A DNA stretch of 36,918 nucleotides, taken from positions 1-36,918 of the IMG/VR virus record IMGVR_UViG_3300045988_098643, one strand, 5' to 3'. This stretch comes from a virus. Below the pieces are notes generated by a model, which was not told where the DNA came from, made no database searches, and was given only the letters and a program-made list of their open reading frames with translations. The position numbers and the translations under genes are program-made. This document shows positions 1 to 36,918 of the stretch, piece by piece. Every line of letters starts with the position of its first letter. Positions within the stretch are counted from its first letter, which is position 1.

Positions 1-16
1 CCTTTACTGTAACTAT

Positions 17-45
17 AGTATATCATAGTATTAATACTATGTCAA
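17..45 (-). promoter_or_regulatory. Sigma-A-type promoter with palindromic operator (copy B)
   Basis: Minus strand reads TTGACA (45..40), 17-nt spacer, TATACT (22..17). The spacer is filled by the perfect palindrome CATAGTATTAATACTATG (24..41). Near-identical to 35861..35889. If the contig is circular it sits upstream of the CDS starting at 36869. Confidence 0.6.
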
Positions 46-442: not shown

Positions 443-646
443 TTATTTTTCTTTATTATAATTAATCGTGCTTATACCTAATATAGTACCTAAAAATGTA
501 TCCACAGCAGCCATACAATACACAACCAAATCAATATGTTCATATCCTAATTTACCGCCAATACCACCTACAAGGGTAGTCAACGCAGGCAAAAAGATAA
601 TAGCTATCCATTTCAACACATCATAACTCTTGTTACTTAACTTCAT
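443..646 (-). CDS. Holin (small two-TM protein, Dp-1-like by eye)
   Basis: 67 aa with two hydrophobic helices (WIAIIFLPALTTLVGGIGG and LVVYCMAAVDTFLGTILGI). Immediately follows the endolysin gene. Confidence 0.7.
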   Translation of the reverse strand: MKLSNKSYDVLKWIAIIFLPALTTLVGGIGGKLGYEHIDLVVYCMAAVDTFLGTILGISTINYNKEK

Positions 647-647
647 C

Positions 648-1583
648 TTATTTCCTCACTAGAAACTTACTTCTATCTTTGTTAAAATCTTCTGCCTTAT
701 CAGTCGCTTTTACGTGATAAGTTGCATATCCAGTCAATCCGTAATTCTTGCCCTCAATCTTGCCTAGATGGTCTCCACCAACTGCGATTATCGTATCTCC
801 CGATTTTACCATCCTACCAAAATCATAGTTGTATGGTGCTGGTGCAAGTAATGCTTTGTGTTCTTGTGCTATAATATATGCTTTTTGGTATTCGTCGTCT
901 AAATAAGTTACAACTGTGTTTTTCACACTGTCTTTTTGTTCTTTAGTCAATTCCAACTTTGCCACTCCTTTCACTTCTGCTTTTGTTTGAGGTCTGCTTA
1001 TTTTTTTAAGTCCGTAAAACTCTGCTATTGTATCTGCTGTGGCTTGTGCAATCTCTTTTCGTTTTTCTACATACAACTTGCAGTCTTCTCTATTAGTGTG
1101 GAATACATGTTCAATCAACATTCCAAGCTTAGCCTTGTTGCTGTATAGTACACCATAGTAATTACTTCCCCCCGGACTTGTAGGCTGTACATAAAAGCGT
1201 TCTGGATTTCTTGTTCTCCATCTAACACCTCTGTTTTTAGTGCCGATTGCACGTGAGATATTAGCACATAAGTTTTTCATCAACTGAGGACTATTTGCAT
1301 TGATGTCTCCGTAAATCTCAATACCTCTTACACTGCTATTCGCCGCGTTTGAATGTAGTGATATAAACAAATCATATCCCTGCGCCTTGTTTCCTCTAGC
1401 TGACAATGACGGATTATCAGTTATGCTGTTCCTTGTAGTGCCTACATAAAATCCGTATTTTTCTAGTTCTCTTTTGAGTACAAGACTGTATTTATAGTTG
1501 TTGTCGCCCTCGTTTCCAATTACTGAGCCACGGTTAAAATTGCGACCTGCACCGTGCCCTGGATCTAACATTATTTTTATCAT
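648..1583 (-). CDS. Endolysin, N-acetylmuramoyl-L-alanine amidase (Amidase_3-like) with a C-terminal putative wall-binding domain
   Basis: N-terminus MIKIMLDPGHGAG...LFISLHSNA is typical of MurNAc-LAA amidases. Lies in the lysis cassette. Confidence 0.9.
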   Translation of the reverse strand: MIKIMLDPGHGAGRNFNRGSVIGNEGDNNYKYSLVLKRELEKYGFYVGTTRNSITDNPSLSARGNKAQGYDLFISLHSNAANSSVRGIEIYGDINANSPQLMKNLCANISRAIGTKNRGVRWRTRNPERFYVQPTSPGGSNYYGVLYSNKAKLGMLIEHVFHTNREDCKLYVEKRKEIAQATADTIAEFYGLKKISRPQTKAEVKGVAKLELTKEQKDSVKNTVVTYLDDEYQKAYIIAQEHKALLAPAPYNYDFGRMVKSGDTIIAVGGDHLGKIEGKNYGLTGYATYHVKATDKAEDFNKDRSKFLVRK

Positions 1584-5128: not shown

Positions 5129-7948
5129 TTAACTCCAACTTAAAGTTCCGTCTGTATTAAAAATTATTGTTTTATTGCTCACAGTTATTCTGTTGCAATA
5201 TAAAATCCCTTCACAATCGAAGTTCGTATTGCAAGATACTCCGTGGCTTACATTTCTTATTTTTCGATAGCCTCCACTGTCAAGATACAGCCCACCTGCA
5301 TTGAGTTCGTAGAAATATCCAGCTCCAACAGCAGCAACTGTTCCGTCGATTTTAACTTCCCCACGACCACCTGTATCTCGTATCTTCACATATCCTGAAT
5401 TCGCTCCAAAATTTGCTGAAGTACCGTTAAATCGTGCAGTACTACCATAACCATTCACACCACTAGTAAATCCATTTCCATTGAATGTTCCTCTCGTGAT
5501 GTTACTTGCGTTCAAATTATCAACATTGATGTATTGTGCATTTATTGTTCCGCCATTGATTTTGTCCGCACTCAGACTACTGATTTTCGCACTTGTAATT
5601 GCTGCATCTTGTATTTCAGCTGTACCTATTGCTCCGTATCCGATTTTTGCATTTGTAATCGAAGCGTCTTTGATTTTCGCACTTGTAATTGCTGCATCTT
5701 GTATTTCAGCTGTACCTATTGCTCCGTATCCGATTTTTGCATTTGTAATCGAAGCGTCTTTGATTTTCGCATTCGTAATTGCACCGTCTTTGATTTCAGC
5801 ACTATCGATAGCTCCATAACCAATCTTTGCATTTGTAATTGCTCCATTTTCAATCTTCGCGTTTGTTATAGCACCGTCTTGTATTTCAGCTTTTCCAATC
5901 GCACCTGTACCGATTTTCGCATTAGTTATTGAGCCGTTCGCAATCTTCGCATTCGTGATTTCTCCGTCTTCGATTTTTGTCCTGTCTATCGCCGCATTTG
6001 CTATCTTCGCGTTTGTTATTTCTCCATCTTTGATTTTTGCTCTGTCTATTGCACTGTTTGCTATCTTTATGTTTGTGACAGCACCATTCTCTATCTTTGC
6101 ATTTGTAATAGCAGCGTTTTGAATGTGCACTCCTCGCACCGCATTTTGTGCGATTTTATCGCCGTCGATTGCATCATCTTGTATTTTTGAATTGCTTATA
6201 GCTCCACTCTGAATCTTTGAATTACTAACTGCATTGTCTTTCAACTTTGTATTATCGACTGCACCATTTCCGATTTTTGTGTTTGATACTGCACCGTCTT
6301 TGATTTTGTCATTCGTGATTGCTCCATCTTTGATTTTGCTTTCAGATACTGTACCTGTAATGATTTTGTCGCCATCGATTTTGTCAATGGATGTGCCGTC
6401 TACAATACTTCTTCCGTCAACTGATTTGATGATATCGCCGAAGTTGAATTCGCCTGTATCCAAATTCAGAAAACTTTTTGCGTTTTTGTCTTGTAGAATT
6501 CCTGTACGGACTAGGTTGGCGTTGAGTGTTCCAGAGTTTATCACGTCTGCAACAATACCCTCTCCAGTCGCCCACGTAGTCCAATCAAAAGTTCCGTCTG
6601 CACGTTTTCGATTTGATATAGCGACTTTTCCTGCACCTATCCAAATCCCTTTTGTTGGATTCTTGTCGATTGGTCTGTTGAATGTGTACAGACCTGGAGC
6701 AAGGTTATACTTGTTTCCACGCTTTAAATCGTATTTATACGCATCATCGTCAAACATCGACTTTTCTAGTTCATTTCTCATTTGCCCTAGATTAATCGTC
6801 ATCGACGTCTGCACTTCATCTTTCAGATTATCAATCTTCGACTCAATCAACTTCCCATAATCGACTTTTGCAATACTCAAATTATCGCCAAGTGTAACCT
6901 CTGAATTTTCTCTAGTTATCAGATTTCTTTTTATCTTGAACACTCTCGAACGATACTGCACATCTATATCTTTTCTAATTATGATTATAGAATCTCCAAG
7001 CTCCACTTCTCCGCTATCTCCAATCGTTGTTGATAGCTGCACCTTTGGTCTGCAGTTTTCAACCAACGTTTCATAAGCTTTTTGGATTAGTATGTTAGGG
7101 TCTTCGATTTCATCAAACACAACAATTTTATATCGTGCTTTTCCATCTGAAAATCCGTGTTGTAGTGTCATTTCAGGAATTTCTAAATAATCTTTTCCTT
7201 TAGCTTTATTGAGTGGATTTCCCTTTGATTTGCTCCACTCAATATCCGTTATCTGTATTCTTCTACCAAAACCGCCTGTCGCGTTTCCGTCTTCGTCGTA
7301 TTTTTCCTCGCCCTTACCACGTGGAACAATTGCCGTGAATACATTTTGTCTATCTATTTCCTTGTCTACATTTATGGCTTTATGTCCGTAAACATATCTA
7401 TTGTGCGTTACTTTTCCTCTTTTTTCGTAAACGTCCACATATCTTTTCGTTATTTTGTTTTCTGAAAATACCAGTCTGAAACCAAGCTCAACCTGAAAAC
7501 TTTCAATAAGTTTTGTCAATGCCTCAGCTCTAGTATTATCGTATAACATCAAATTAGCGTTTTTGTTTGTCAGTACTTTTCCGATTTCCCATCTACTGCC
7601 ATTAAGCACCTTGCCTAACGCAGTCGATACCGATGCATTTGTCAGCCTTTCTTCTCTGATATATCCGTAAAACATCATTTCATCATACACAACGTGTACA
7701 GCTGTTATTGATATTCCCTCTTCTGCAGTCTTTATGCTTACGATTTTATACAGTTGAAACGCCGTGTCGTCTGCTTGGTCTTTGTGTCCGATGTAAATTA
7801 CATCTTTCAACTTTTTAAACATATCCATTTCCACGACAACTTCCAATGTCATCGTCTCAGATAATCCCTCAGTTTGTTCCGCCGATATTACACTATCTTT
7901 GTATATTATGTCTGTTAGTTTTTCGTTTGCATCAAATAAATAAAACAC
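5129..7948 (-). CDS. Tail-associated lysin/Tal-like minor structural protein (prophage endopeptidase tail type) with a long 10-residue repeat domain
   Basis: 939 aa, positioned after Dit. The N-terminal part looks like a phage minor structural protein. The C-terminal half carries roughly 28 decapeptide repeats (G-A-I-T-N-A-K-I-x-D). Confidence 0.85.
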   Translation of the reverse strand: MFYLFDANEKLTDIIYKDSVISAEQTEGLSETMTLEVVVEMDMFKKLKDVIYIGHKDQADDTAFQLYKIVSIKTAEEGISITAVHVVYDEMMFYGYIREERLTNASVSTALGKVLNGSRWEIGKVLTNKNANLMLYDNTRAEALTKLIESFQVELGFRLVFSENKITKRYVDVYEKRGKVTHNRYVYGHKAINVDKEIDRQNVFTAIVPRGKGEEKYDEDGNATGGFGRRIQITDIEWSKSKGNPLNKAKGKDYLEIPEMTLQHGFSDGKARYKIVVFDEIEDPNILIQKAYETLVENCRPKVQLSTTIGDSGEVELGDSIIIIRKDIDVQYRSRVFKIKRNLITRENSEVTLGDNLSIAKVDYGKLIESKIDNLKDEVQTSMTINLGQMRNELEKSMFDDDAYKYDLKRGNKYNLAPGLYTFNRPIDKNPTKGIWIGAGKVAISNRKRADGTFDWTTWATGEGIVADVINSGTLNANLVRTGILQDKNAKSFLNLDTGEFNFGDIIKSVDGRSIVDGTSIDKIDGDKIITGTVSESKIKDGAITNDKIKDGAVSNTKIGNGAVDNTKLKDNAVSNSKIQSGAISNSKIQDDAIDGDKIAQNAVRGVHIQNAAITNAKIENGAVTNIKIANSAIDRAKIKDGEITNAKIANAAIDRTKIEDGEITNAKIANGSITNAKIGTGAIGKAEIQDGAITNAKIENGAITNAKIGYGAIDSAEIKDGAITNAKIKDASITNAKIGYGAIGTAEIQDAAITSAKIKDASITNAKIGYGAIGTAEIQDAAITSAKISSLSADKINGGTINAQYINVDNLNASNITRGTFNGNGFTSGVNGYGSTARFNGTSANFGANSGYVKIRDTGGRGEVKIDGTVAAVGAGYFYELNAGGLYLDSGGYRKIRNVSHGVSCNTNFDCEGILYCNRITVSNKTIIFNTDGTLSWS
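5581..5760. repeat. Exact 2 x 90-bp tandem duplication inside the Tal repeat domain
   Basis: 5581..5670 is identical base for base to 5671..5760. Each copy encodes KIKDASITNAKIGYGAIGTAEIQDAAITSA. Confidence 0.95.
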
Positions 7949-8797
7949 CTACAGCACCTTCTCCCTGAAATACACCTCAGTATTTTTGTATGAATTTGAG
8001 TACAGCTCATCTCTGTAATTTACCGCGAAATCCTCAAAATCAGAAAATATATCTAATTTATCTATCAAATTCTTACCGCTTGTATCTCTTACTTCTCCGT
8101 TTTTTATATCAAGCACGACGTCAATAACCTCGTGATTTGGATTATTAATCTTGATAAATGTTCCAGAAGTGATATTTTTAATCATCAAATTATCCATATC
8201 TTTAGAAATAAATGACCTTATTTCTTCTACGTCCGATTCATACTTGCCGATGTAGTTAAATTCTTTTTGCGTTCTAGGTTCAATAATAAATTTTTTTAAC
8301 GTCTTTCTGTACTTGTAAGGGTCTATACATTCAAACGTAAAATTTGATATAAAATTAAATTTATTTGCTTCTAACTCATTGAAATTAGATAACGTGCCGA
8401 TATAATAAAAATCTCCATCATCAGAAAAAGAAATCTGCACTTGCTCACGATTTGCGTAATATATCAAGTCGTTAAATCGTCTCAGTATTTCTTGCTCCGT
8501 TTGACACTCCAACAAATATTCAATCGTTAGAGTTCTAGACGGCAACGAAGAAAAACCAAACTTATTAGTCTGCACGGCTTTTCTTCTACCTCTAATCGAC
8601 GTTTTATTATTAATTTTGCTTATTTGATAGTTAGAGGTACTAATATTTCTACCGATAATCTCTCGCCCATACACATTCAAGGTCGTATACCCTGGAACAA
8701 CTCTGTCTAGATTAGTTCCATCAATAAAAACATCGATTATGTTTTCACGCTCAGGTGCTGTCTCATTGATATCTACAAATTTATATATTTTTTTCAC
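7949..8797 (-). CDS. Distal tail protein (Dit)
   Basis: 282 aa, lying between the tape measure and Tal genes (conserved synteny). Confidence 0.7.
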   Translation of the reverse strand: MKKIYKFVDINETAPERENIIDVFIDGTNLDRVVPGYTTLNVYGREIIGRNISTSNYQISKINNKTSIRGRRKAVQTNKFGFSSLPSRTLTIEYLLECQTEQEILRRFNDLIYYANREQVQISFSDDGDFYYIGTLSNFNELEANKFNFISNFTFECIDPYKYRKTLKKFIIEPRTQKEFNYIGKYESDVEEIRSFISKDMDNLMIKNITSGTFIKINNPNHEVIDVVLDIKNGEVRDTSGKNLIDKLDIFSDFEDFAVNYRDELYSNSYKNTEVYFREKVL

Positions 8798-8805
8798 ACC
8801 ATCAC

Positions 8806-11463
8806 CTATATCCTATACTCGCTCAGTCTAATTACTTCATCTTGCCTTTGTGTTATATCGTCCACAAACGCTTTAAATGTCTTGTCAAACATCTTGAATG
8901 TAATCTCAACAGGCTGTTTTGCCGTTGTGTCATTTTTCAATGTATGCGTGAAATTAGCATTACCTGACACATCGCCAAAACTACTGTTGAACTCACTAGA
9001 CGACTTATTAAACGTACTAATCATATCGCTTGCCATACTTTCAACTGCTTTTAATGGCTTTTTACTTGTGTCTTCAATACCTATCGCTGCTCCGAGCATC
9101 GTATTAATACCTATATCCTTAAAAACTCTAGATGGTGAGTGAATACCCAACAGCCTTTTAGCTCCGTTGATTGCATTACTTACAGCTCCAGTAACAGCTG
9201 ATATTAACCTATGAGCCGCACTTCTAACACCGTTTACAAAACCACTAATCAAGTTAGAACCAACAGACGCTGCACTTGAAATAAATCTTCTCGCACTATT
9301 TACAGCATTTTGGAACGCTTGACCTACAGTTCTTGGAAGCTGCGTAATTCTCGTTTTTACTGTACTCAACATATTTGATATAGCGTTTATTACATTGCTT
9401 TTCATTTCGTTAAACTTATTTACCGCCGATGTTTTCGCGTTTTGTACCGCATTTACAATAGTAGTTTTTATATTGTTAAAAATATTTGATGCAGTCGCTT
9501 TAATGCTATTCCAAATCTGCGACACATGACTTTTAAAAGTTTCCCATAACTGTTTGCCGATTTTTACGGCTATTTCAATTAGATTTTTAATAACTTGCTT
9601 TATACCTTCCCAAATTTGAGATGCAGCCTGCTTTATCTTCTCCCATATTTGTTTAAGAGAACTTTTAGCACCTTCCCAGTCTCCAGTTAATGTTTGTAAA
9701 AGAATCAGTATTGGTGTAATTATCACTATTTTAATCATTTCCCATACACCTTTTGCAATGCTTTTTATTCCGTCCCAAATTCCTTTTAAATTATCCTTAA
9801 CAGAATTCCACATATTCATAATCCATTCTTTGAATCCGTTCCAGACTTCTTTTACGCTATCCCATATATTAGTAGCACCTGATTTGATAGATTCCCACAA
9901 ATTTGAGAAGAACTCTTTCATTGTTTCCCATGCGTTTTTAACCCAATCAGTAAATGCCTGCCATTTATCTTTTACTGCTTCCCATAAGTTTGATGCCGTT
10001 TCTTTGATGGCTTGCCAAGTCGCCGAGAAAAACTCTTTTATGGCGTTCCAGATATTTATTACAGCATTTCTGAAATCTTCGTTTGTATTCCACAAATACA
10101 CAATTACACCGATAACCGCCGCAATTGCCACAACAACTAATCCCACTGGAGACGTTAAAAATCCGAACGCCTTACCTAATATTTCAAGTCCGCCTTTTAA
10201 ATTTCCGACAAATTCAAAAATGTCCGTTAAGTGCTTCAAGAATCCACCCAAAGCAAACACCACAGGACCAATCGCAGCCGCGAATATACCGATTTTCACA
10301 ATCATATCTTGTGTTGCAGGGTCTAGTTGATTAAACCAGTCTACCCATTCTTTTATTTTTTGAACAACGTCACGAATAAAAGGTCTCAACCTTTCCCCAA
10401 TCGCAATCGCCGCTCCTTCAACTGCCGATTTTAAAAGAACTAAGTCTCCATGTAAATTGTCATTCATAATCTTTGCCATCTCATCAGCAGACCCACTTGA
10501 ATTTTGTATAGCTGTAGTTAGTTTGTTGTAGTCTTCTTCACTTGCATTGATAATTCCAAGCATTCCACTCATCGCACGTTGCCCGAATATCATACTTGCG
10601 ATTTCTGCTTGTTGTGAGCCGTCTAGTCCTTGAAAACTATCTCTTAAAATATCTATAGTTTCATGCAGTGATTTTCCTTTAAAATCATCAGTACTTAACC
10701 CGATTAGTTCAAGCCCTTTGTTTACTTCTTTAGTTGGCTTTACTAACCTTGTGAACGCAGACCTTAATGATGTACCAGCTTGTGAACCTTTGATACCTGC
10801 ATTTGCCATTAATCCTACAGCAACTGCCGTGTCTTCGATTGAATATCCCAACGCACCTGCCACTGGAGCAGCGTATTTAAACGTTTCGCCCATCAATCCA
10901 ACATTGGTGTTTGAGTTAGTCGCAGCAGCAGCTAACACGTCACTAAATCTTGCAGCGTCCGTCGCTTTTAATCCAAACGCAGTTAATGAATCCGTTACGA
11001 TGTCTGATACAGTGCCCAAGTTTTCACCACTCGCAGCCGCTAAATTCATTATTGGTGGAAGTCCTGCAATCATTTGGTCAGTCTTCCAACCTGCCATACC
11101 CATGTATTTTAGTGCTTCTGCGGAATCTATTGCGGTGAATTTTGTAGTCGCACCCATTTTTTTAGCTATATCTTCAAGCCTTTTAAAATCTCCACCAGTA
11201 GCACCTGATATCGCCTTGACTTGACTCATCGCCGCTTCAAATTCTGATGCAGTCTTTACACTTTTAATCCCAACACCAACAAGTGGAGCAGTAACTCCCA
11301 ATGTCAACGCTTTTCCGATTCCTTGGAGTGATTCTCCCATCATCTGACTATTACTAACTGTTAAACCTTTTAATTTGTTTGTCTCGCCGTAAACTTGTTT
11401 CAGTGCGTTTTGGTACTTTGATATGTTTGCAGATATAACCGCAACAACGCTAAAACTATCCAT
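8806..11463 (-). CDS. Tape measure protein
   Basis: 885 aa with an internal TM segment and many W-x(10) periodic repeats ([28 protein letters not shown] and so on). Sits downstream of the G/T chaperones. Confidence 0.9.
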
Positions 11464-25434: not shown

Positions 25435-26172
25435 TTACTCCTCCTTGCATACCTCTACTGGTACTCCTAATTTCTTCTCTATACTATCTCTTATCAATTC
25501 CTCGTCGCTATTGCCATCACTAAGGTGTAATACATATACTCTCTTTAATCTCGTCATTTTAACGTCTTCTAGTGCCTCTAAAATAGTTTCCAAACTCATA
25601 TGATTTTTAACTATACGATTTCTCAGACTAACATTGATTTTTCCACACTCTACACGCTCATCTAAAGCTGACTTCACATAATTACATTCAATCATCAGGA
25701 CATCGCAGGCAGGTATTTTATATTTCATATATGCAGTATCCGTCACAAAGACAACGGATTCTTCTTTATCATATCTGCCATAAGTCCCGATATAATAACT
25801 GACGGGCTCTGATACGTCGTGGACGGCTTCGAAAGGTAAAACCATTATCCCATCGATTACTTCTGAATAATATCGTGCATTTTCAAACGGTCTAAAAGTT
25901 TTTAACCTATGACCACTAACTCCCAATGCTTCTGCCGTTCCTTTTGTCATATAACAGTCAACTCCTGCTTTCATCAAATCCTTAACTGCCTTGGCGTGAT
26001 CCATATGCTCATGCGTTACTAAGCAAAAATCTACATCAGACACTTTATAATTCAACGCTTTTTGTATCTTCTTAAAAGGTAGTCCGCATTCAAGTAATAT
26101 CTTCGTATTGTTTATATTGACCAGGTAGCAATTTCCGCTGCTACCTGAGCCAATCGTCTTAACATCTATCAT
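25435..26172 (-). CDS. Metallo-beta-lactamase-fold hydrolase/nuclease
   Basis: HxHxDH motif (THEHMDHAKA). Confidence 0.8.
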   Translation of the reverse strand: MIDVKTIGSGSSGNCYLVNINNTKILLECGLPFKKIQKALNYKVSDVDFCLVTHEHMDHAKAVKDLMKAGVDCYMTKGTAEALGVSGHRLKTFRPFENARYYSEVIDGIMVLPFEAVHDVSEPVSYYIGTYGRYDKEESVVFVTDTAYMKYKIPACDVLMIECNYVKSALDERVECGKINVSLRNRIVKNHMSLETILEALEDVKMTRLKRVYVLHLSDGNSDEELIRDSIEKKLGVPVEVCKEE

Positions 26173-32176: not shown

Positions 32177-33580
32177 ATGAATACAGACAAAAAACCATTT
32201 TATTATAACAGAATATTTTTGAACTTATTATTTATATTTGGTGGTCTAACTTTAATCCCACCATTCATAATTTTAGGAGTTCCAATTCTCGTATTGGCGT
32301 TTGTACTTAATAAAAAAGCAAACGCAAAATATCCACAATACTCAATCAAAAACATTGAAGAATTTGAAGAAAAAAACAAACTATTAGGTGATATTGAACA
32401 AATAAAAAAACAAAAAGAAAACACAGTTGAGGAAGCAAATAAGCTAAAAGAACAAACTGAAAAAGAGCACGAAGAACTAATAGAAAAAACTGAAAAAGAA
32501 TATGAACGCCTAAAAGAATCTAAAATAAAAGAAATCGAAGACTTAGAAAAAATTATAGATGATTATTCTAAAGAATTAACTGTTAAATACATTGATACTA
32601 GAGACTACAGCGATATTACATCTGCCCAGATAAAAAATGAAATTTCACTTGTTAATTTAAAAATCAAAGAATTAATAAAATCGGGAAAAGCTGTTAGAAT
32701 ATCCTACTCAGATTCTAATAAAAGAGATAACAACTTAACTAAACAAATACTTAAAAATTTCACATCTGACGCTAATATCATACTAAATAAACTAACACTA
32801 TCCAATGTAGACTCATCAAGAGCAAGAATAATCAAAGCCTTTGAATTAACGAATAAAATTTTTGCAGAAGATTATATACAAATAAAAAAAGAGTATTTAA
32901 ATTTAAAACTTGAAGAATTAAATCTTTACCATCAATATAATCTTAAATTAGAGCAAGAAAAAGAACAACAAAAAGCTATCAGAGAGCAAATGGTAGAAGA
33001 AGAAAAAGTTCGTAGAGAAATAGAAAGAGAAAAAAGAAAGATTGAAAAAGAAGAAATTCAATTTAGAAATGAACAAAATAAATTAATGTTATATTTAAAC
33101 AAAGCAAAAGACGATATCGAAAAGAAATTATATCTTGATAAAATCAAGGATTTGGAAGAAAAACTTAAACTACTTGAATCAGATAAAAAGAACGTATTTG
33201 ATAGAGAAGCAAATACTCGTGCAGGATTCGTGTATGTAATATCCAACATTGGCTCTTTCGGCGAAGACATCTACAAAATAGGAATGACAAGAAGACTAGA
33301 ACCAATGGATAGAATCAAAGAACTTGGCAGTGCTTCCGTTCCTTTTGAATTTGATGTCCATGCAATGATATTTTCAGACGATGCTCCAAGCTTAGAAACA
33401 ACCTTGCATCAAAAATTCAGGGATAGAGAAGTTAATAAAGTAAATCAACGCAAAGAATTCTTCAAAGTACCACTATCAGAAATAGAACAAGTAGTAAAAG
33501 AAAACTACAACGCCACTGTTGAATTTACAGAAATAGCTAAAGCAGAACAATACAGACAAACTTTAGCTATGACTAAATAA
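32177..33580 (+). CDS. Membrane-anchored coiled-coil protein with a DUF4041-like region and a C-terminal T5orf172/MUG113 (GIY-YIG superfamily) domain
   Basis: N-terminal TM (LLFIFGGLTLIPPFIILGVPILVLAFVL), a long K/E coiled coil, and a C-terminus GFVYVISN...YKIGMTRRLEPMDRIKELGSASVPFEFDVHAMIF...LHQKFRDREVNK...EFF. Confidence 0.75.
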   Translation: MNTDKKPFYYNRIFLNLLFIFGGLTLIPPFIILGVPILVLAFVLNKKANAKYPQYSIKNIEEFEEKNKLLGDIEQIKKQKENTVEEANKLKEQTEKEHEELIEKTEKEYERLKESKIKEIEDLEKIIDDYSKELTVKYIDTRDYSDITSAQIKNEISLVNLKIKELIKSGKAVRISYSDSNKRDNNLTKQILKNFTSDANIILNKLTLSNVDSSRARIIKAFELTNKIFAEDYIQIKKEYLNLKLEELNLYHQYNLKLEQEKEQQKAIREQMVEEEKVRREIEREKRKIEKEEIQFRNEQNKLMLYLNKAKDDIEKKLYLDKIKDLEEKLKLLESDKKNVFDREANTRAGFVYVISNIGSFGEDIYKIGMTRRLEPMDRIKELGSASVPFEFDVHAMIFSDDAPSLETTLHQKFRDREVNKVNQRKEFFKVPLSEIEQVVKENYNATVEFTEIAKAEQYRQTLAMTK

Positions 33581-33693: not shown

Positions 33694-34770
33694 ATGAAAA
33701 TCACAAAATATAAAAAAGACACTCAAACGCTGTACAAAGTCCAAGCCTACATCGGCACATACGACAATGGCGTAAAGTGTGAGATTTCGCGTGCTGGATT
33801 TAAAACACAAAAAGAATGCAAGGATCTAGTAAATAAATTAAAATACGAATTTAAAAGTAACAAAAACAACAAAAAGAAAAAAACAATAACATTTTCAAAA
33901 ATATATCAACAATGGTTAAAAAACTATTCACTCACAGTAAAAGAAACTACACTCGCGAAAACTAAACAGATTTTCAATAATCATATTTTAGTAGTATTTA
34001 AAGATAAAGACATCAACAAAATAACCTCTTTTGACTGTCAAGGCTTCATAAATTCTTTAACCTCATACGCAACGGGTAAGAAAATCTACGACTACGCTAA
34101 ATCAGTTATGGAGTACGCATTTAAACTTAGCTTAATCAAAGAAAATCCATTTGAAAAAGTTATAATTCCTCAATTTAAAAAATATAAAAAGCACATAAAT
34201 TATCTTGATAAAGAAGAAGTTAAAAAATTAATGGAAGTAATCGATGATGAAATGTGGTACGCGTATTTCAGGCTGCTAATCTATGCAGGTCTGAGAAAAT
34301 CGGAAGCTTTGGCACTACATTGGAGTGATATAGATTTTAAGAAATCAACAATAACGATAAATCACACTATTGGATTTGGAGATAATAGCAAACTAATCCG
34401 TCAAGCTCCAAAAACAGAATCATCACAAGATGAAATATTGTTAGATGCAGAAACCTTACAGATTTTAAGAAATCTTAAAAAAACAACATCAAGTATTATA
34501 GTATTTAACAATAACGGCAAGTACATCTATCCGTCTCGTGTAGGTGAAGCTCTCACCAAATACACAACACTTGCTAATATAAAAAGAATAAGAGTTCACG
34601 ATTTGCGACACACTCACGCAAGTTTACTGATATCAAGCGGAGCAAGTATAAAAGCAGTACAGCAAAGGTTAAGACACGCGGATATCAAGACCACGATGAA
34701 CATTTACGCCCATTTAACCAAAGACGCGGAAAAAGATTCGCTTGACAATTTTGTGAATTATATCGGATAA
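33694..34770 (+). CDS. int: Tyrosine recombinase / phage integrase
   Basis: C-terminal catalytic region VHDLRHTHASLLISSG...TTMNIYAHL. SAM-like N-terminal domain. Confidence 0.9.
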   Translation: MKITKYKKDTQTLYKVQAYIGTYDNGVKCEISRAGFKTQKECKDLVNKLKYEFKSNKNNKKKKTITFSKIYQQWLKNYSLTVKETTLAKTKQIFNNHILVVFKDKDINKITSFDCQGFINSLTSYATGKKIYDYAKSVMEYAFKLSLIKENPFEKVIIPQFKKYKKHINYLDKEEVKKLMEVIDDEMWYAYFRLLIYAGLRKSEALALHWSDIDFKKSTITINHTIGFGDNSKLIRQAPKTESSQDEILLDAETLQILRNLKKTTSSIIVFNNNGKYIYPSRVGEALTKYTTLANIKRIRVHDLRHTHASLLISSGASIKAVQQRLRHADIKTTMNIYAHLTKDAEKDSLDNFVNYIG

Positions 34771-34990
34771 ACTCGGTAAATACTCTGTAAATATTTTTAA
34801 AACGTTGAAATTATAAGGTTCGTAGGATACTCCTCATCTCCACCATATATTTTCAAATTAGCTCATTACAACTCAAAACGTTGATAAATGGGCTTTTTTA
34901 TTTTTTTAATGTCGGTATTTTTATCTAAATATCTCAAGTTTTTTCAAAATTTTTCGGTAAAACTTTCGGTAAGAATTTTTCTGCACTGAT
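34771..34990. other. Candidate attP region
   Basis: Lies directly downstream of int. Contains a tRNA/tmRNA 3'-end-like string GGTTCG...CATCTCCACCA (34818..34846), flanking direct repeats AAAACGTTGA (34799 and 34875), and (T)CGGTAA-type motifs at 34773, 34912, 34954 and 34966. Confidence 0.35.
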
Positions 34991-35030
34991 TTTATACAGT
35001 TTCTTGCATATTTTAGTCTGATTTTGAATA

Positions 35031-35057
35031 TAAAAAAAGAGAGTCGCTGAACTCTCT
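35031..35057 (-). terminator. Intrinsic terminator for the 35816..35202 transcript
   Basis: Minus strand AGAGAGT-TCAGCG-ACTCTCT followed by TTTTTTT. Confidence 0.65.
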
Positions 35058-35114
35058 AATTTATTTTATACATTTTGATTTTGTGTTGCCGTTTTGTTGC
35101 ATAAGTTATAGCTA

Positions 35115-35142
35115 TTGACTTTTTAATTTATTACGATATAAT
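35115..35142 (+). promoter_or_regulatory. Sigma-A-type promoter (chassis copy 2)
   Basis: TTGACT-16 nt-TATAAT. 27 of 28 nt are identical to 36101..36128. Confidence 0.7.
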
Positions 35143-35148
35143 TAAATC

Positions 35149-35228
35149 ATCAAGCATAGTTTGAGTATGATGTAATCATATAGGTATTAGAAAGGCACTC
35201 ATTAAAGAGTGCTTTTTCTTTTTTCTTC
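35149..35228 (+). ncRNA. Small RNA (~80 nt) carrying a solitary 36-nt type II-A-like CRISPR repeat mimic (35159..35194)
   Basis: The consensus promoter lies 7 nt upstream of the predicted start. The intrinsic terminator is GCACTC-ATTAAA-GAGTGC plus a T-run (35195..35228). There is no ORF. The body GTTTGAGTATGATGTAATCATATAGGTATTAGAAAG resembles GTTTTAG-type II-A repeats. Confidence 0.45.
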
Positions 35229-35816
35229 TTCCAGTCTTTCTCTAATTTCTTTCATTTGTCTCCAGTCGTATGTTCCCTTTGCGTAAATTCTAGCATCAAC
35301 TCTATTTTTAAAACCTTCATATATTTCTAAAATTTGTTCATAATTAAAGTTATATAAATATAAATCTTTTATATCGTGTGATAAATACATATCTAAAATA
35401 TAAATTTCTTTTAAAGTATCGTGTTTTTCTTTTCCATCGTAGTCGTCTTCTAAATAAAGTAATACATTATTGATTTGAACTATAGTTTCATTATCGTATA
35501 GTTTTAAAATACATCTTCCAATTTTTTTCTTTAATTCTAAATCATTTTCTCTGTTTCTGTGGTAGCACATTTCAAATAACATTTCTGCAACGAAATCTTC
35601 GTCGAAATCTAATTCCCCATCGCATTCTTCATTTAACATATTCCAAACTGGAAGCGATAATAAATAACAATGAAAACATTCGATAGCAGCTATTATTTTT
35701 TCTTCATCTGTATTAATATCTTTATCTATATAGTTATAACTTTCAATATTTTGTTTTCCGTTCAACCATCTTGTGTTGTTTTTGATTTCTATACTTTCTA
35801 ATTTTAAATTCTTCAT
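35202..35816 (-). CDS. Acidic 205-aa hypothetical protein (candidate anti-defence protein)
   Basis: Starts MKNLKLESIE with ATG at 35816 after AAAAGGAGAAAAAAG. Driven by the palindrome-bearing promoter. No domain recognised by eye. Confidence 0.7.
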   Translation of the reverse strand: MKNLKLESIEIKNNTRWLNGKQNIESYNYIDKDINTDEEKIIAAIECFHCYLLSLPVWNMLNEECDGELDFDEDFVAEMLFEMCYHRNRENDLELKKKIGRCILKLYDNETIVQINNVLLYLEDDYDGKEKHDTLKEIYILDMYLSHDIKDLYLYNFNYEQILEIYEGFKNRVDARIYAKGTYDWRQMKEIRERLEEEKRKSTL

Positions 35817-35860
35817 CTTTTTTCTCCTTTTATTTTTTACATTTCCTTTACTGTAACTAT

Positions 35861-35889
35861 AGTATAACATAGTATTAATACTATGTCAA
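35861..35889 (-). promoter_or_regulatory. Sigma-A-type promoter with palindromic operator (copy A)
   Basis: Minus strand TTGACA (35889..35884), 17 nt, TATACT (35866..35861). The perfect 18-bp palindrome CATAGTATTAATACTATG lies at 35868..35885. Confidence 0.7.
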
Positions 35890-35892
35890 CCA

Positions 35893-36090
35893 TTATTTCA
35901 ATTTTTTTTCAATTAAATTTTTAAACTCAATTAATTCTTCTTTTGTCGCAAACTCTCTTATATATCGTCTACAGCTCGACCTCAAAGAACTAATTCTTTT
36001 TCTTTCTCGTGCCTCAGGATTATTTTTTAAATACCTTTTGTCTGCTTCTAATTGTTGCTCAATGTCTTTATAGCCTTTTCTTTTTGTCAT
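35893..36090 (-). CDS. Small basic 65-aa protein (candidate regulator of the duplicated promoters)
   Basis: Starts MTKRKGYKDIEQQ with ATG at 36090 after GGAGAAATGT. Helical and basic (RERKRISSLRSSCRRYIREF). The track ORF start at 36141 reads into the array promoter. Confidence 0.6.
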   Translation of the reverse strand: MTKRKGYKDIEQQLEADKRYLKNNPEARERKRISSLRSSCRRYIREFATKEELIEFKNLIEKKLK

Positions 36091-36100
36091 ACATTTCTCC

Positions 36101-36128
36101 TTGACTTTTTTATTTATTACGATATAAT
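36101..36128 (+). promoter_or_regulatory. Sigma-A-type promoter (chassis copy 1) of the mini-array
   Basis: TTGACT-16 nt-TATAAT. A mirrored ATTATA (36133..36138) forms a possible overlapping divergent -10 box. Confidence 0.7.
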
Positions 36129-36141
36129 ATAAATTATACAA

Positions 36142-36230
36142 ATAGTTCCCGCAAACGCGGGTGTGACCCTTTATAGTTAAGGGTAAGATCTAACGATCTC
36201 AATTAGTTCCTGCAAACGCAGGGAAGGAAG
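36142..36230 (+). CRISPR. Cas-less mini-CRISPR array: two type I-E-like 28-nt repeats flanking one 33-nt spacer
   Basis: R1 is ATAGTTCCCGCAAACGCGGGTGTGACCC (36142..36169). The spacer is TTTATAGTTAAGGGTAAGATCTAACGATCTCAA (36170..36202). R2 is TTAGTTCCTGCAAACGCAGGGAAGGAAG (36203..36230), with a compensatory stem change and a degenerate 3' end. Confidence 0.65.
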
Positions 36231-36258
36231 CTCTCTTTATGAGAGCTTTTCTTATTTT
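36227..36258 (+). terminator. Intrinsic terminator of the mini-array transcript
   Basis: GAAGCTCTC-TTTAT-GAGAGCTTT followed by TTTCTTATTTT. Overlaps the stop codon of the convergent CDS at 36252. Confidence 0.7.
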
Positions 36259-36869
36259 CTATATTTATTTACTACATTTATGTCAGTAGTTTCAAAAGTG
36301 TTGCCATCGACAGTTATATAATAAGTTGGTAGCTCATCATCATCGTATATAGGACCAGTAATACTTGCTTTATCATCATTTTCTAGGCACTTTTCGCTTT
36401 CTCTTATAGACTCTCTATCTTCAAGCATTTGTCTTCTCACAGCATTTATCACATTATCAAGTTCGTCTCTAGTAATATCAATTTTTTTATCTCTCCATCT
36501 TTGACATTCTTCTTGTTCCAGATCTAAAAAACCATGGTATAAATCTCCATATATGTTTTGAGGACTATTTTTTTCTTTAACTTTTTTGTATTTTTTTAAT
36601 AACTCTTGATAATAATCTTCGTTCCAAGCTCTTTGGCTTTCAATTTCTCTTTTAAAGTTGTTTATATAAATTTTTAATGATTTTTCAAGCGTATCGTGAT
36701 TATAAGAATCTTCTTCAAGAAATTTTGTAATCAAATCTCTATAATCTTTTTTTGTCATCTTTTCTACATTTCTGTTATACATTCCACAAATGTAACTAAA
36801 GTCTGTATTTGACTTCACTCTATACTCTTCGAATTCTTCCCATAATTCTTCTAAATTTTTATCTTTCAT
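36252..36869 (-). CDS. Acidic 205-aa hypothetical protein (candidate anti-defence protein)
   Basis: Starts MKDKNLEELWEEFEEY after AAAGGAGAAAAATT. Its 5' UTR and RBS are homologous to those of 35202..35816, but the proteins are unrelated by eye. Confidence 0.7.
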   Translation of the reverse strand: MKDKNLEELWEEFEEYRVKSNTDFSYICGMYNRNVEKMTKKDYRDLITKFLEEDSYNHDTLEKSLKIYINNFKREIESQRAWNEDYYQELLKKYKKVKEKNSPQNIYGDLYHGFLDLEQEECQRWRDKKIDITRDELDNVINAVRRQMLEDRESIRESEKCLENDDKASITGPIYDDDELPTYYITVDGNTFETTDINVVNKYRK

Positions 36870-36896: not shown

Positions 36897-36918
36897 CCTT
36901 TACTGTAACTATAGTATA
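36897..36918. repeat. 22-nt terminal identity with window positions 1..22
   Basis: CCTTTACTGTAACTATAGTATA occurs at both ends of the window and at 35845..35866. Confidence 0.95.

What the first reader, a model, noticed from the sequence alone, without database searches (positions are those of the whole stretch)
35115..35228. Solitary type II-A-like CRISPR repeat expressed as a stand-alone small RNA (candidate RNA anti-CRISPR or tracrRNA sponge)
A second copy of the array promoter (TTGACT-16-TATAAT) drives an ~80-nt ORF-less transcript that ends at a strong intrinsic terminator. Its body (35159..35194) is GTTTGAGTATGATGTAATCATATAGGTATTAGAAAG, 36 nt long. It begins like GTTTTAG-type II-A repeats. 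It resembles the S. aureus Cas9 repeat as I remember it (GTTTTAGTACTCTGTAATTTTAGGTATGAGGTAGAC): 17 of the first 22 positions match, and TAGGTATTAG aligns with TAGGTATGAG after a 2-nt indel. Only about 10 nt precede it in the transcript, so no usable spacer is present. A lone repeat could pair with tracrRNA and load Cas9 with a non-functional or very short guide. This would parallel the solitary repeat units described as RNA anti-CRISPRs in other CRISPR types.
Basis: partly seen in the sequence, partly recalled or inferred. Interest (0 to 1): 0.8.

Follow-up and report, generated by a model that had tools for sequence, protein, structure and literature searches.

The report
Phage-encoded lone Cas9 CRISPR-repeat decoy RNA
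A temperate phage carries, under its own strong promoter, a single copy of the CRISPR repeat used by the Cas9 system of Helcococcus bovis; it most likely makes a small decoy RNA that ties up the Cas9 helper RNA (tracrRNA) and so blunts immunity. This kind of phage counter-defence is already described, but not for this host.

Summary
Window 35115-35228 has a near-consensus promoter, about 10 transcribed leader nt, a 36-nt repeat-like body and an intrinsic terminator, with no ORF. A near-identical promoter at 36101-36128 drives a two-repeat mini-array.

A degenerate pattern built from the 36-mer hit one locus among 185,579 species genomes. That locus is a 22-repeat array beside cas9-cas1-cas2-csn2 (type II-A) in Helcococcus bovis KG197.
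- Repeat nt 1-18 are identical; overall 30/33 with a 2-nt gap (E 1e-5 in the window).
- The phage RNA pairs with that locus's tracrRNA anti-repeat at -33 kcal/mol (host repeat -41.9; shuffles -11.3 +/- 2.9).
- The host Cas9 is SpCas9-like, so the S. aureus resemblance was only a lead.

Two further copies exist, one in a related element and one in a conjugative-element-like contig. Both keep the repeat mimic unchanged while the leader varies.

The phage attachment site lies elsewhere, at a tRNA-like CCA end (34823-34845). This excludes an attP role.

No leader match to the cas9 promoter was found, so it fails the defining test of a promoter-silencing viral scaRNA.

Best reading: a type II-A solitary-repeat RNA anti-CRISPR acting as a tracrRNA/Cas9 decoy. 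It is a new member of a known kind. Expression and activity are untested.

The parts
35115..35142 (+). Sigma-70-type promoter TTGACT-16-TATAAT of the solitary-repeat RNA gene
   Evidence: 11 of 12 consensus positions. It is 27/28 identical to the mini-array promoter at 36101-36128. The same promoter precedes the same RNA in L030.
35143..35158 (+). Leader TAAATCATCAAGCATA. The inferred transcription start is near 35149, giving a 5' tail of about 10 nt (the would-be guide). Positions 35150-35155 can pair with repeat nt 1-6 (35159-35164).
   Evidence: Sequence and fold. The leader varies among the three copies: C>T, G>A (which turns a G.U pair into A-U in the small hairpin) and a 1-nt loop insertion. 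No 3'-anchored match of 8 nt or more in L006 or L008; the only one in L009 is an 8-mer inside the cas9 coding region.
35159..35194 (+). Solitary 36-nt mimic of the Helcococcus bovis type II-A CRISPR repeat, in crRNA sense. Nt 1-18 (35159-35176) and the block at 35179-35189 are identical to the host repeat. An internal hairpin lies at 35165-35181.
   Evidence: 30/33 identity, E 1.2e-5. Pairs with the host tracrRNA anti-repeat at -33.0 kcal/mol. Its first 35 nt are invariant in L029 and L030.
35190..35228 (+). Intrinsic terminator: stem-loop GAAAGGCACTC-ATTAAA-GAGTGCTTTTT plus a T-tract. It overlaps the stop codon of the convergent 204-aa gene.
   Evidence: The stem is kept and the loop varies in L029 and L030.
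35202..35816 (-). Convergent 204-aa gene of unknown function, the variable protein cargo of the cassette. In L030 it is replaced by an unrelated 103-aa gene.
   Evidence: No hit in Pfam, PHROGs, PADLOC, NCBIfam or PDB. The AlphaFold model is unusable, pLDDT 40.
35861..35889 (-). Promoter TTGACA-17-TATACT of the 204-aa gene, containing the perfect palindrome CATAGTATTAATACTATG (35868-35885), a possible operator. A second copy spans window 1-44 across the circular junction and serves the 205-aa gene.
   Evidence: (D14, D18). The operator role is inferred.
35893..36090 (-). 65-aa three-helix protein (PHROG 2277, unknown function). It is conserved next to the CRISPR-mimic RNA cassettes in L029, and by sequence reading in L030, L040 and L041.
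   Evidence: Foldseek against PDB gave no significant match.
36101..36128 (+). Second copy of the promoter, driving the mini-array
36142..36250 (+). Mini-array. Repeat 1 spans 36142-36169 (hairpin CCCGCAAACGCGGG plus TGTGACCC). A 33-nt spacer spans 36170-36202. The truncated repeat 2 spans 36203-36222 (hairpin CCTGCAAACGCAGG, with compensatory changes). Terminator 36226-36250. It looks type I-E-like, from memory of Streptococcus and Lactobacillus I-E repeats.
   Evidence: (D8, spacing 61). The subtype assignment was not tested; no matching array was found.
36252..36869 (-). 205-aa gene of unknown function, the last gene of the accessory island
34823..34845 (+). Phage attachment-site core (TAGGATACTCCTCATCTCCACCA, a tRNA- or tmRNA-like 3' end with CCA). 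It is about 310 nt upstream of the repeat mimic.
   Evidence: The prophage-junction contig L007 is identical to the window up to 34845 and then diverges. The same core is present in the related phage L010.
33694..34770 (+). Tyrosine integrase
   Evidence: The closest named relatives are from Finegoldia, Helcococcus bovis and Anaerococcus, about 45% identical.

Best explanation
The locus is a stand-alone small-RNA gene in a roughly 2-kb accessory island of a temperate siphophage of Helcococcus, a Peptoniphilaceae genus. The RNA is about 75-80 nt long. It has a leader of about 10 nt, a 36-nt copy of the host type II-A CRISPR repeat in crRNA orientation, and a terminator hairpin.

Proposed mechanism:
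- Repeat nt 1-18 are identical to the host repeat. These positions form the lower stem, the bulge position and the first 11 bp of the upper stem of the crRNA:tracrRNA duplex.
- The RNA should therefore anneal to the host tracrRNA just as a pre-crRNA repeat does.
- The duplex would be bound by Cas9, and probably cut by RNase III.
- The guide would be at most about 10 nt, too short for cleavage.
- Made in excess from a consensus promoter, the RNA would titrate tracrRNA and Cas9 away from real crRNAs. It would be an RNA anti-CRISPR (decoy or sponge) protecting the prophage, or the infecting phage, from Cas9.

Shown here: the sequence anatomy, the cognate repeat, the cas operon and tracrRNA in H. 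bovis, the predicted pairing, conservation of the mimic across three mobile-element contexts, and a location away from attP.

Inferred: the transcription start and expression, Cas9 loading, RNase III processing, the inhibitory effect, and the identity of the natural host strain.
For: Cognate system
- A pattern derived from the 36-mer hit only H. bovis KG197 among the GTDB species genomes.
- That locus has 22 perfect 36-nt repeats with 30-nt spacers, directly downstream of cas9 (1323 aa), cas1, cas2 and csn2.
- A tracrRNA gene with its own promoter lies divergent from cas9. Its anti-repeat pairs with the repeat as a 7-bp lower stem, a 2-nt bulge and a long upper stem.

Mimicry and pairing
- 30/33 identity, E 1.2e-5.
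- Duplex with the anti-repeat: -33.0 kcal/mol, against -41.9 for the true repeat and -11.3 +/- 2.9 (minimum -23.3) for 300 shuffles.
- Full-length cofold: -65.2, against -49.1 for the two monomers summed.

Gene-like packaging
- Consensus promoter, terminator and no ORF.
- The same promoter type drives other CRISPR-mimic RNAs: an I-E-like mini-array in the window and I-B-like mini-arrays in L029, L040 and L041.

Selection on the mimic rather than the leader
- In three contexts (this phage; L029; the conjugative-element-like L030) the first 35 nt of the mimic are invariant. The leader, promoter spacer, terminator loop and neighbouring gene all vary.
- No array with the phage-specific variant was found in the genome, viral or metagenome scans.

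Accessory nature
- A related phage (integrase 77% identical) has the same att core but lacks the whole island.

Precedent
- Solitary repeat units act as RNA anti-CRISPRs (PMC10651486).
- Phage scaRNA-like RNAs are proposed to sequester tracrRNA and Cas9 (bioRxiv 10.64898/2026.06.01.729453).
Against: - There is no expression data, and the transcription start is only predicted.
- No type II solitary repeat has been shown experimentally to inhibit Cas9. Tested Racrs are I-C, I-E, I-F and V-A. The one viral scaRNA tested did not repress with its native guide.
- The host link is indirect. None of 44 spacers from H. bovis-type arrays matches the phage. The integrase is only about 45% identical to named Peptoniphilaceae proteins.
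- The predicted RNA is strongly self-structured (-22 kcal/mol, z = -3.8).
- In the minimum-energy cofold the leader hairpin keeps repeat nt 1-6 away from the tracrRNA lower-stem strand. This could weaken productive Cas9 loading.
- Neighbouring proteins have no recognisable Acr or Aca similarity.
Confidence: 0.6

Rival explanations
1. It is a viral scaRNA in the strict sense. The leader of about 10-11 nt acts as a short guide. With tracrRNA it directs Cas9 to bind, without cutting, a promoter (cas9's own, another host gene, or a phage gene) and so silences it.
For: - The architecture (promoter, about 10-11 nt, repeat mimic) matches the vscaRNAs and scaRNAs of bioRxiv 10.64898/2026.06.01.729453.
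- The 11-mer CATCAAGCATA adjoining the repeat occurs once more in the phage, at 2498-2508 on the minus strand. That site is inside the 3' end of the 699-aa tail gene. 0.026 such matches are expected by chance.
Against: - No 3'-anchored leader match of 8 nt or more exists in L006 or L008. Both contain the whole cas9-upstream intergenic region and the tracrRNA gene. The only match in L009 is an 8-mer inside the cas9 coding region.
- No host scaRNA sharing the guide was seen. The spacer before the degenerate terminal repeat has no second site in L006.
- The leader is the least conserved part. It differs at what would be seed positions, and one copy has a 1-nt insertion next to the repeat.
- The self-match is not preserved by the leader variants, and the PAM is unknown.
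Confidence: 0.15
2. It is a non-functional relic or a DNA-level element. A repeat was picked up from a host array by illegitimate recombination. It is kept by chance, or serves as a homology patch for recombination with host arrays, and has no RNA function.
For: - Phages do occasionally carry array fragments.
- No expression or activity data exist.
- Its blastn bit score of 36.2 is below the 41.1 cut-off used by SRUFinder.
Against: - The unit is trimmed exactly to one repeat. It lies between a consensus promoter and a terminator, in crRNA sense.
- The first 35 nt of the mimic are invariant in three different mobile-element contexts while the flanks diverge.
- The same promoter module drives other CRISPR-derived RNAs.
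- 18 nt of uninterrupted identity is short for homologous recombination (established knowledge).
Confidence: 0.1
3. The repeat-like sequence is the phage attachment site. It would let the prophage integrate into host CRISPR repeats and disrupt the array, as I recall was described for a Streptococcus pyogenes phage (Varble et al. 2021, from memory).
For: It lies only about 390 nt downstream of the integrase gene. PMC10651486 mentions integration into arrays as one earlier speculation about solitary repeats.
Against: - The prophage-junction contig L007 matches the window up to ...CTCATCTCCACCA (34845) and then diverges into other DNA. The crossover is therefore at a tRNA-like CCA end about 310 nt upstream of the repeat mimic.
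- A related phage has the same core but no repeat mimic.
- The H. bovis KG197 array is uninterrupted.
Confidence: 0.02
4. It is an unrelated regulatory small RNA, for example an antisense or antitoxin-like partner of the convergent 204-aa gene. Its likeness to a CRISPR repeat would then be incidental.
For: - It is convergent with the 204-aa gene and overlaps its 3' end (35202-35228).
- The same convergent layout is seen with a different protein gene in L030.
- The RNA is strongly structured.
Against: - The overlap covers only the terminator.
- The partner gene changes between copies while the repeat mimic does not.
- The match to the host repeat is far beyond chance.
Confidence: 0.05

Closest known systems
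Viral solitary repeat units acting as RNA anti-CRISPRs (Racrs; Camara-Wilpert et al., Nature 2023, PMC10651486)
   Same: - A single CRISPR-repeat mimic in an intergenic region of a (pro)phage.
- It lies directly downstream of a promoter and is not linked to cas genes.
- It matches the subtype present in the presumed host.
- The proposed action is sequestration of CRISPR components.
- The same element also occurs on a second kind of mobile element (L030).
   Different: - Proven Racrs act on type I-C, I-E, I-F and V-A systems. There the repeat hairpin is bound directly by Cas6, Cas5, Cas7 or Cas12a.
- Here the first partner must be an RNA, the tracrRNA, because type II repeats are recognised as a duplex.
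- Type II solitary repeats were only counted in that survey, not tested.
- This element is less similar to the host repeat (30/33 with an indel, bit score 36) than the SRUFinder cut-off.
Viral scaRNAs (vscaRNAs) and Cas9-regulating scaRNAs (Feussner et al., bioRxiv 2026, 10.64898/2026.06.01.729453); Francisella scaRNA
   Same: - A phage-encoded short leader plus repeat mimic that pairs with the tracrRNA anti-repeat of a type II-A system.
- Expected to sequester tracrRNA and Cas9.
   Different: - Defined vscaRNAs share an 11-nt guide with a host scaRNA and match the cas9 promoter. Here no such match or host scaRNA was found, and the leader is variable.
- The host genus (Helcococcus, Peptoniphilaceae) was not named in the passages of that preprint I read (Gemella, Lactobacillus and Streptococcus were).
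- An Acr or Aca neighbour could not be recognised.
Viral single-guide RNAs (vsgRNAs) derived from tracr-L (same preprint); S. pyogenes tracr-L (Workman et al. 2021, as cited there)
   Same: A phage small RNA that subverts Cas9 mainly by sequestration and carries a guide too short for cleavage.
   Different: vsgRNAs contain the repeat, the anti-repeat and the tracrRNA tail in one molecule and bind Cas9 on their own. This RNA has only the repeat half and depends on the host tracrRNA.
Viral CRISPR-like regulatory RNAs from mini-arrays (Cracr; bioRxiv 10.1101/2024.10.29.618823)
   Same: These are the nearest parallel for the neighbouring mini-array (36142-36250) driven by the same promoter. Together the two genes look like an RNA-based anti-CRISPR island.
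   Different: Those are type I and V repeat-spacer-repeat units with promoter-targeting spacers. The finding itself has no second repeat and no usable spacer.

Membership tests
Solitary repeat unit / Racr candidate (PMC10651486) | Matches a known CRISPR repeat (SRUFinder: identity >= 90%, coverage >= 90%, bit score >= 41.1) | tested here: inconclusive
   Against the H. bovis repeat: 30/33 = 90.9% identity and 33/36 = 92% coverage. The blastn-short bit score is 36.2, below 41.1 (thresholds). My BLAST settings may differ from theirs.
Solitary repeat unit / Racr candidate (PMC10651486) | Truly solitary: no other full or partial repeat within 100 bp | tested here: met
   The 36-mer is unique in the window with up to 3 mismatches. 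No local direct repeat of it was found.
Solitary repeat unit / Racr candidate (PMC10651486) | Intergenic, on a virus or plasmid, usually just downstream of a promoter | tested here: met
   The window is a complete temperate phage with terminase, portal, tail, lysis and integrase genes. There is no ORF over the element. A consensus promoter ends 16 nt upstream.
Solitary repeat unit / Racr candidate (PMC10651486) | Host carries a CRISPR-Cas system of the matching subtype | tested here: met
   H. bovis KG197 has cas9-cas1-cas2-csn2 plus a 22-repeat array plus a tracrRNA gene. Close relatives L008 and L009 have the same. That this species is the phage's host is inferred.
Solitary repeat unit / Racr candidate (PMC10651486) | Binds Cas components and inhibits interference | not testable with these tools
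   Needs expression, pull-down and plaque or plasmid interference assays.
Viral scaRNA (bioRxiv 10.64898/2026.06.01.729453) | Repeat-like element of at least 20 nt, over 80% identical, including repeat nt 1, complementary to the tracrRNA anti-repeat | tested here: met
   Nt 1-18 are identical and overall identity is 30/33. The duplex with the anti-repeat is -33.0 kcal/mol against -11.3 +/- 2.9 for shuffles.
Viral scaRNA (bioRxiv 10.64898/2026.06.01.729453) | The 10-15 nt upstream of the repeat match the cas9 promoter region perfectly over at least 10 nt anchored at the 3' end, next to a PAM | tested here: not met
   No 3'-anchored match of 8 nt or more in L006 or L008, including the cas9-upstream intergenic regions. 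The only hit in L009 is an 8-mer inside the cas9 coding region. Caveat: only three host loci were available and the PAM is unknown.
Viral scaRNA (bioRxiv 10.64898/2026.06.01.729453) | Shares its guide with a host-encoded Cas9-regulating scaRNA | tested here: not met
   The only scaRNA-like candidate in L006 is the last spacer plus the degenerate terminal repeat. Its 3' end is ...CGCTACGCTCAA, which differs from the phage leader, and it has no second site in the locus.
Viral scaRNA (bioRxiv 10.64898/2026.06.01.729453) | Encoded near an Acr or Aca gene | tested here: inconclusive
   The neighbours (204, 65 and 205 aa; 103 aa in L030) hit no family or solved structure. Structure models were of low confidence or gave no match. 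Palindromes within their promoters (35868-35885) resemble acr-operator layouts, but this is inference only.
CRISPR array or mini-array | Two or more repeats separated by a spacer | tested here: not met
   Single copy. The mini-array at 36142-36250 has an unrelated repeat.
tracrRNA / viral sgRNA | Anti-repeat followed by a nexus and 3' hairpins, or a repeat:anti-repeat stem-loop plus a tracr tail | tested here: not met
   The element is in repeat sense, complementary to the H. bovis anti-repeat. It is followed only by one terminator hairpin. Rfam gave no hit.
attP that mimics a CRISPR repeat (integration into arrays) | The crossover core coincides with the repeat-like sequence | tested here: not met
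   The junction contig L007 diverges after window 34845, about 310 nt upstream of the mimic. The same core occurs without the mimic in L010.

The most novel reading that the evidence does not exclude
Mobile elements of Peptoniphilaceae may share a modular RNA anti-CRISPR cassette. One conserved promoter (TTGACTTTTTwATT...TATAAT-TAAAT) would be plugged onto mimics of whichever CRISPR types the host carries: a type II-A solitary repeat, an I-E-like mini-array or I-B-like mini-arrays. Each cassette is paired with a variable protein gene.

Within this system the II-A unit would be a dedicated tracrRNA sponge. Its own leader hairpin (UCAAGC/GUUUGA, strengthened to UCAAAC in the other copies) would hide the lower-stem nucleotides. 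The phage-specific change at repeat nt 19-22 sits where RNase III would be expected to cut (position recalled from S. pyogenes). tracrRNA would then be trapped in a duplex that Cas9 cannot use.

That mechanism would differ both from protein-sequestering Racrs and from promoter-silencing vscaRNAs and vsgRNAs.
Probability: 0.15. Interest if true: 0.7.

Novelty: new member of a known kind. Interest (0 to 1): 0.5.

Why it matters
- Experimental evidence that a bare repeat mimic can disarm Cas9 is still missing. Tested Racrs are class 1 or Cas12a. The one viral scaRNA assayed was inactive with its native guide.
- This locus offers a clean test case. The cognate repeat, the tracrRNA gene and the cas operon are all identified. 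Three natural variants keep the mimic but change the leader. A sister cassette under the same promoter carries a mini-array of another CRISPR type.
- If active, it would show that tracrRNA itself is a target of phage counter-defence.
- It would extend RNA anti-CRISPRs to an under-studied veterinary genus. Helcococcus bovis was isolated from dairy-cow uterus (PMC11420031).
- Such an RNA could also serve as a small genetically encoded off-switch for SpCas9-like enzymes that use dual guide RNAs.

Tried and rejected
Searches that found nothing useful
- Rfam over the window, over 34700-36300 at E <= 10, and over the H. bovis locus. No CRISPR-DR or tracrRNA family was hit; only chance terminator-like hits appeared.
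- GenBank phages: no nucleotide relatives. TerL and endolysin protein searches pointed only broadly to Bacillota phages.
- IMG/VR scans for the 32-mer, the 22-mer core and the promoter: nothing.
- IMG/VR scan for the 18-mer: chance hits inside genes, plus H. bovis-type arrays in two isolate-derived contigs.
- Relatives of the 204-aa protein in IMG/VR: only two weak partial hits.

Host link
- I looked for spacers against this phage among 44 spacers from KG197 and the IMG/VR arrays. None matched, the best being 14-18 nt. The phage-host link is therefore not confirmed by spacers.

Leader as a guide
- No cas9-promoter match was found. The 11-nt self-match at 2498-2508 is probably chance: 0.026 expected, and the leader variants do not keep it.

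attP hypothesis
- Rejected by the junction contig.

Neighbouring proteins as Acr or Aca
- Pfam, PHROGs, PADLOC, NCBIfam and PDB sequence searches were all negative.
- The two cargo proteins are not homologous to each other.
- The AlphaFold single-sequence model of the 204-aa protein was unusable, pLDDT 40.
- The 65-aa model (pLDDT 72) gave no Foldseek match in PDB.
- No known Acr domain was found in ten other small phage ORFs.

Mini-array
- The I-E-like repeat core found only chance GC-rich coding hits in IMG/VR. Its cognate system remains unidentified.

S. aureus repeat

Failed scripts
- Two Python scripts hit the time limit: one search printed only its spacer-BLAST table and one search printed nothing. 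Both analyses were rerun in smaller form.
Full report
**What is in the window**

The window is a complete temperate siphophage genome of 36.9 kb with about 34% GC. Its ends overlap: 1-22 equals 36897-36918. It encodes terminase, portal and head, tail and lysis genes, a CI-like repressor and a tyrosine integrase at 33694-34770. The same genome was assembled as contigs of about 36.9 kb in two ENA samples, and partly in two Logan samples. It has no nucleotide relative among GenBank phages or in IMG/VR.

**Checking the observation**

- TTGACT-16-TATAAT lies at 35115-35142.
- The 36-mer GTTTGAGTATGATGTAATCATATAGGTATTAGAAAG lies at 35159-35194 and is unique in the window.
- A strong terminator lies at 35190-35217 with a T-tract after it.
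- There is no ORF on that strand.
- A near-identical promoter at 36101-36128 (27/28 nt) precedes a two-repeat mini-array with its own terminator.

Only 16 nt separate the -10 box from the repeat. The transcribed leader is therefore about 10 nt. The start site is inferred.

**Finding the cognate system**

I built a degenerate pattern from the 36-mer, GTTTGAGTANNNTGTAATN{2,6}TAGGTAT. I scanned one genome from each of 185,579 species with it. It hit exactly one locus, in Helcococcus bovis KG197, 22 times at 66-nt spacing.

That locus (L006) contains:
- cas9 (1323 aa), cas1, cas2 and csn2, which is a type II-A operon;
- 22 perfect repeats GTTTGAGTATGATGTAATTTCGTATAGGTATTAAAC with 30-nt spacers, plus a degenerate terminal repeat (Pfam calls in the near-identical locus L008).

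Upstream of cas9, and divergent from it, lies a tracrRNA gene.
- It has a TTGACA-17-AATAAT promoter.
- Its anti-repeat pairs with the repeat at -41.9 kcal/mol, as a 7-bp lower stem, a 2-nt bulge and a long upper stem.
- Hairpins and a terminator follow.

The Cas9 is SpCas9-like (E about 1e-135 to S. pyogenes Cas9 chains; best PDB match 9jwk, E 1e-246). It is only distantly related to the S. aureus type (E about 1e-24).

**How good is the mimic**

Phage and host repeats are identical at nt 1-18. They then differ (CA against TTCG), are identical again for 11 nt (TATAGGTATTA), and differ at the 3' end.
- blastn-short: 30/33 identity, E 1.2e-5 for the window.
- An exact 18-mer match is expected 6e-6 times.
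- The phage 36-mer pairs with the tracrRNA anti-repeat at -33.0 kcal/mol. Three hundred shuffles give -11.3 +/- 2.9, with a minimum of -23.3.
- For full-length RNAs the heterodimer is favoured by about 16 kcal/mol over the separate folds.

From established sgRNA anatomy, the lower stem, the bulge and the first base pairs of the upper stem are what Cas9 needs from the repeat. Those positions are the ones kept. The phage-specific changes begin at nt 19. That is about where RNase III cuts in S. pyogenes (my knowledge), and beyond the part retained in mature crRNA.

**Other copies**

A metagenome scan for the phage-specific core found two more copies.
- L029 lies in a related element with the same 65-aa and 204-aa genes.
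- L030 lies next to relaxase-like and CHAP-domain genes typical of conjugative elements, judged by reading their translations. Its convergent gene encodes a different, 103-aa protein.

In all three, the first 35 nt of the mimic are invariant. The following parts vary:
- the leader: C>T, G>A and a 1-nt insertion next to the repeat;
- the promoter spacer;
- the terminator loop;
- the neighbouring gene.

No array carrying the phage-type variant turned up anywhere. Selection therefore appears to act on the repeat mimic and not on a guide.

The leader changes also preserve a small hairpin between the leader (UCAAGC or UCAAAC) and repeat nt 1-6. With three sequences this is only suggestive.

**Genomic setting**

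Contig L007 is a prophage junction. It equals the window up to ...CTCATCTCCACCA (34845) and then diverges. The attachment core is therefore a tRNA- or tmRNA-like 3' end, about 310 nt upstream of the mimic.

A related phage (integrase 77% identical) has the same core but goes straight from attP to the lysis genes. About 2 kb, roughly 35040 through the circular junction to about 105, is therefore an accessory island. It contains:
- the solitary-repeat RNA gene;
- a 204-aa gene;
- a 65-aa gene;
- the mini-array;
- a 205-aa gene.

In a lysogen this island sits at the prophage end, with its own promoters and terminators.

The same promoter family drives I-B-like mini-arrays in L029 and in two IMG/VR phages, and another hairpin RNA in L040. 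The island proteins have no recognisable family or structure.

**Mechanism**

The best-supported explanation is a type II-A RNA anti-CRISPR. The RNA anneals to tracrRNA like a pre-crRNA repeat. It would occupy tracrRNA, and probably Cas9, with a guide too short to license cleavage. This lowers the pool available to real crRNAs.

Shown: the anatomy, the cognate system, the predicted pairing and the conservation pattern. Inferred: expression, processing, loading and inhibition.

Rivals:
- The strict viral-scaRNA model, in which a short guide silences the cas9 promoter, fails its defining test. There is no 3'-anchored leader match of 8 nt or more in or upstream of the cas operon in L006 or L008, and only an 8-mer inside cas9 in L009. 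No host scaRNA sharing the guide was seen. It keeps some probability because only three host loci were available.
- An 11-nt self-match at 2498-2508 (0.026 expected) is probably chance.
- The attP idea is contradicted by the junction data.
- A relic or an unrelated sRNA is unlikely given the packaging and conservation.

**Comparison with what is known**

Solitary repeat units in phages were shown to be RNA anti-CRISPRs for types I-C, I-E, I-F and V-A. They were catalogued for all types except VI (PMC10651486).

A 2026 preprint describes phage sgRNAs. It also describes 29 phage scaRNA-like RNAs for Cas9, which are predicted to sequester tracrRNA and silence cas9. The one tested was inactive with its native guide.

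A second preprint describes viral mini-array RNAs that silence cas promoters. That is the likely parallel for the neighbouring mini-array.

The present element works like these and fits the solitary-repeat definition. It does not meet the guide-based definition of a vscaRNA. I therefore file it as a new member of a known kind, in a new host lineage, with an unusual pairing of two CRISPR-mimic RNA genes under one promoter type.

**Verdict**

- Observation: confirmed.
- Interpretation: supported at the level that sequence analysis can reach.
- Function: untested.
- Interest: moderate (0.5). It is not a new principle, but it is a well-defined and experimentally tractable case for the still-open question of whether a bare repeat can disarm Cas9 through tracrRNA.

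Noticed in passing
window 36101-36250 (+): A second small-RNA gene with the same promoter. It is a repeat-spacer-repeat mini-array with 61-nt spacing.
- Repeat hairpins are CCCGCAAACGCGGG and CCTGCAAACGCAGG, which differ by compensatory changes.
- After the first hairpin comes TGTGACCC, which looks like a type I-E 5' handle (from memory).
- The second repeat is cut off right after its hairpin, so exactly one crRNA-like RNA would be made.
- The 33-nt spacer is itself hairpin-rich.
- No cognate array or target was found.
   Followed up: partly
L029 about 590-820 (- strand); L040 about 9100-9370; L041 about 6900-7170: Other elements carry type I-B-like mini-arrays in place of the I-E-like one. 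Their repeats end in ...TTGGAATGTAAAT, there are 2-3 repeats, and the last is truncated. They lie behind the same TTGACT-16-TATAAT/TAAAT promoter, next to a homologue of the 65-aa gene. Their AT-rich spacers resemble each other. The promoter-plus-CRISPR-mimic cassette looks modular.
   Followed up: partly
window 32177-33580 (+): The 467-aa DUF4041/T5orf172 protein next to the integrase matches the PD-Lambda-1 anti-phage defence family (PADLOC E 2e-120). The prophage therefore seems to carry both a defence gene and counter-defence RNAs.
   Followed up: no
window 34799-34886 and 34823-34845: The attachment core ends in a tRNA- or tmRNA-like ...TCTCCACCA. It is flanked by direct repeats AAAACGTTGA(A/T)A at 34799-34810 and 34875-34886, which may be integrase arm sites. 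The target gene in the host was not identified; L007 holds only 14 nt of host flank.
   Followed up: partly
window 35861-35889 and 1-44 (- strand): The promoters of the 204-aa and 205-aa genes are duplicated modules with a perfect 18-nt palindrome (CATAGTATTAATACTATG) between the -35 and -10 boxes. L030 has a different palindrome (ATACCTTAAAAGGTAT) at the same place. This is reminiscent of Aca-controlled acr promoters. The conserved 65-aa three-helix protein is a candidate regulator.
   Followed up: partly
window 2498-2508 (- strand): The 11 nt next to the repeat mimic (CATCAAGCATA) recur once, inside the 3' end of the 699-aa tail-repeat gene. 0.026 such matches are expected by chance. The leader variants in L029 and L030 do not keep it.
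   Followed up: partly
L015 / L024 / L017 (IMGVR_UViG_2889533087_000001 and 2889856599_000001): Two isolate-derived 'viral' contigs hold H. bovis-type arrays split into blocks: 26 repeats, a 1.5-kb gap with two unknown ORFs, then 3 repeats ending in AACC. A lone full repeat lies 2.1 kb further on. Nearby are a serine recombinase, ABC-3C-like genes and a ParE/RelB pair. Something has apparently inserted into the array.
   Followed up: partly
L040 about 8380-8530 (- strand): A further copy of the promoter type (TTGACTTTTTAACCTTTTTAGTATAAT) drives a different ORF-less hairpin RNA (atagatagaaagcagg...cctgcttgtctatctat) with its own terminator. Its nature is unknown.
   Followed up: no
window 25435-26172 (-): The metallo-beta-lactamase-fold protein in the RecT/SSB module carries a weak precomputed hit to the anti-Pycsar Apyc1 family.
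   Followed up: no
window 5491-6366 and 3369-4011 (- strand genes): Long in-frame periodic repeats lie inside the 939-aa and 699-aa tail proteins. The units are 30/90 nt in the first and 21/42 nt in the second.
   Followed up: no
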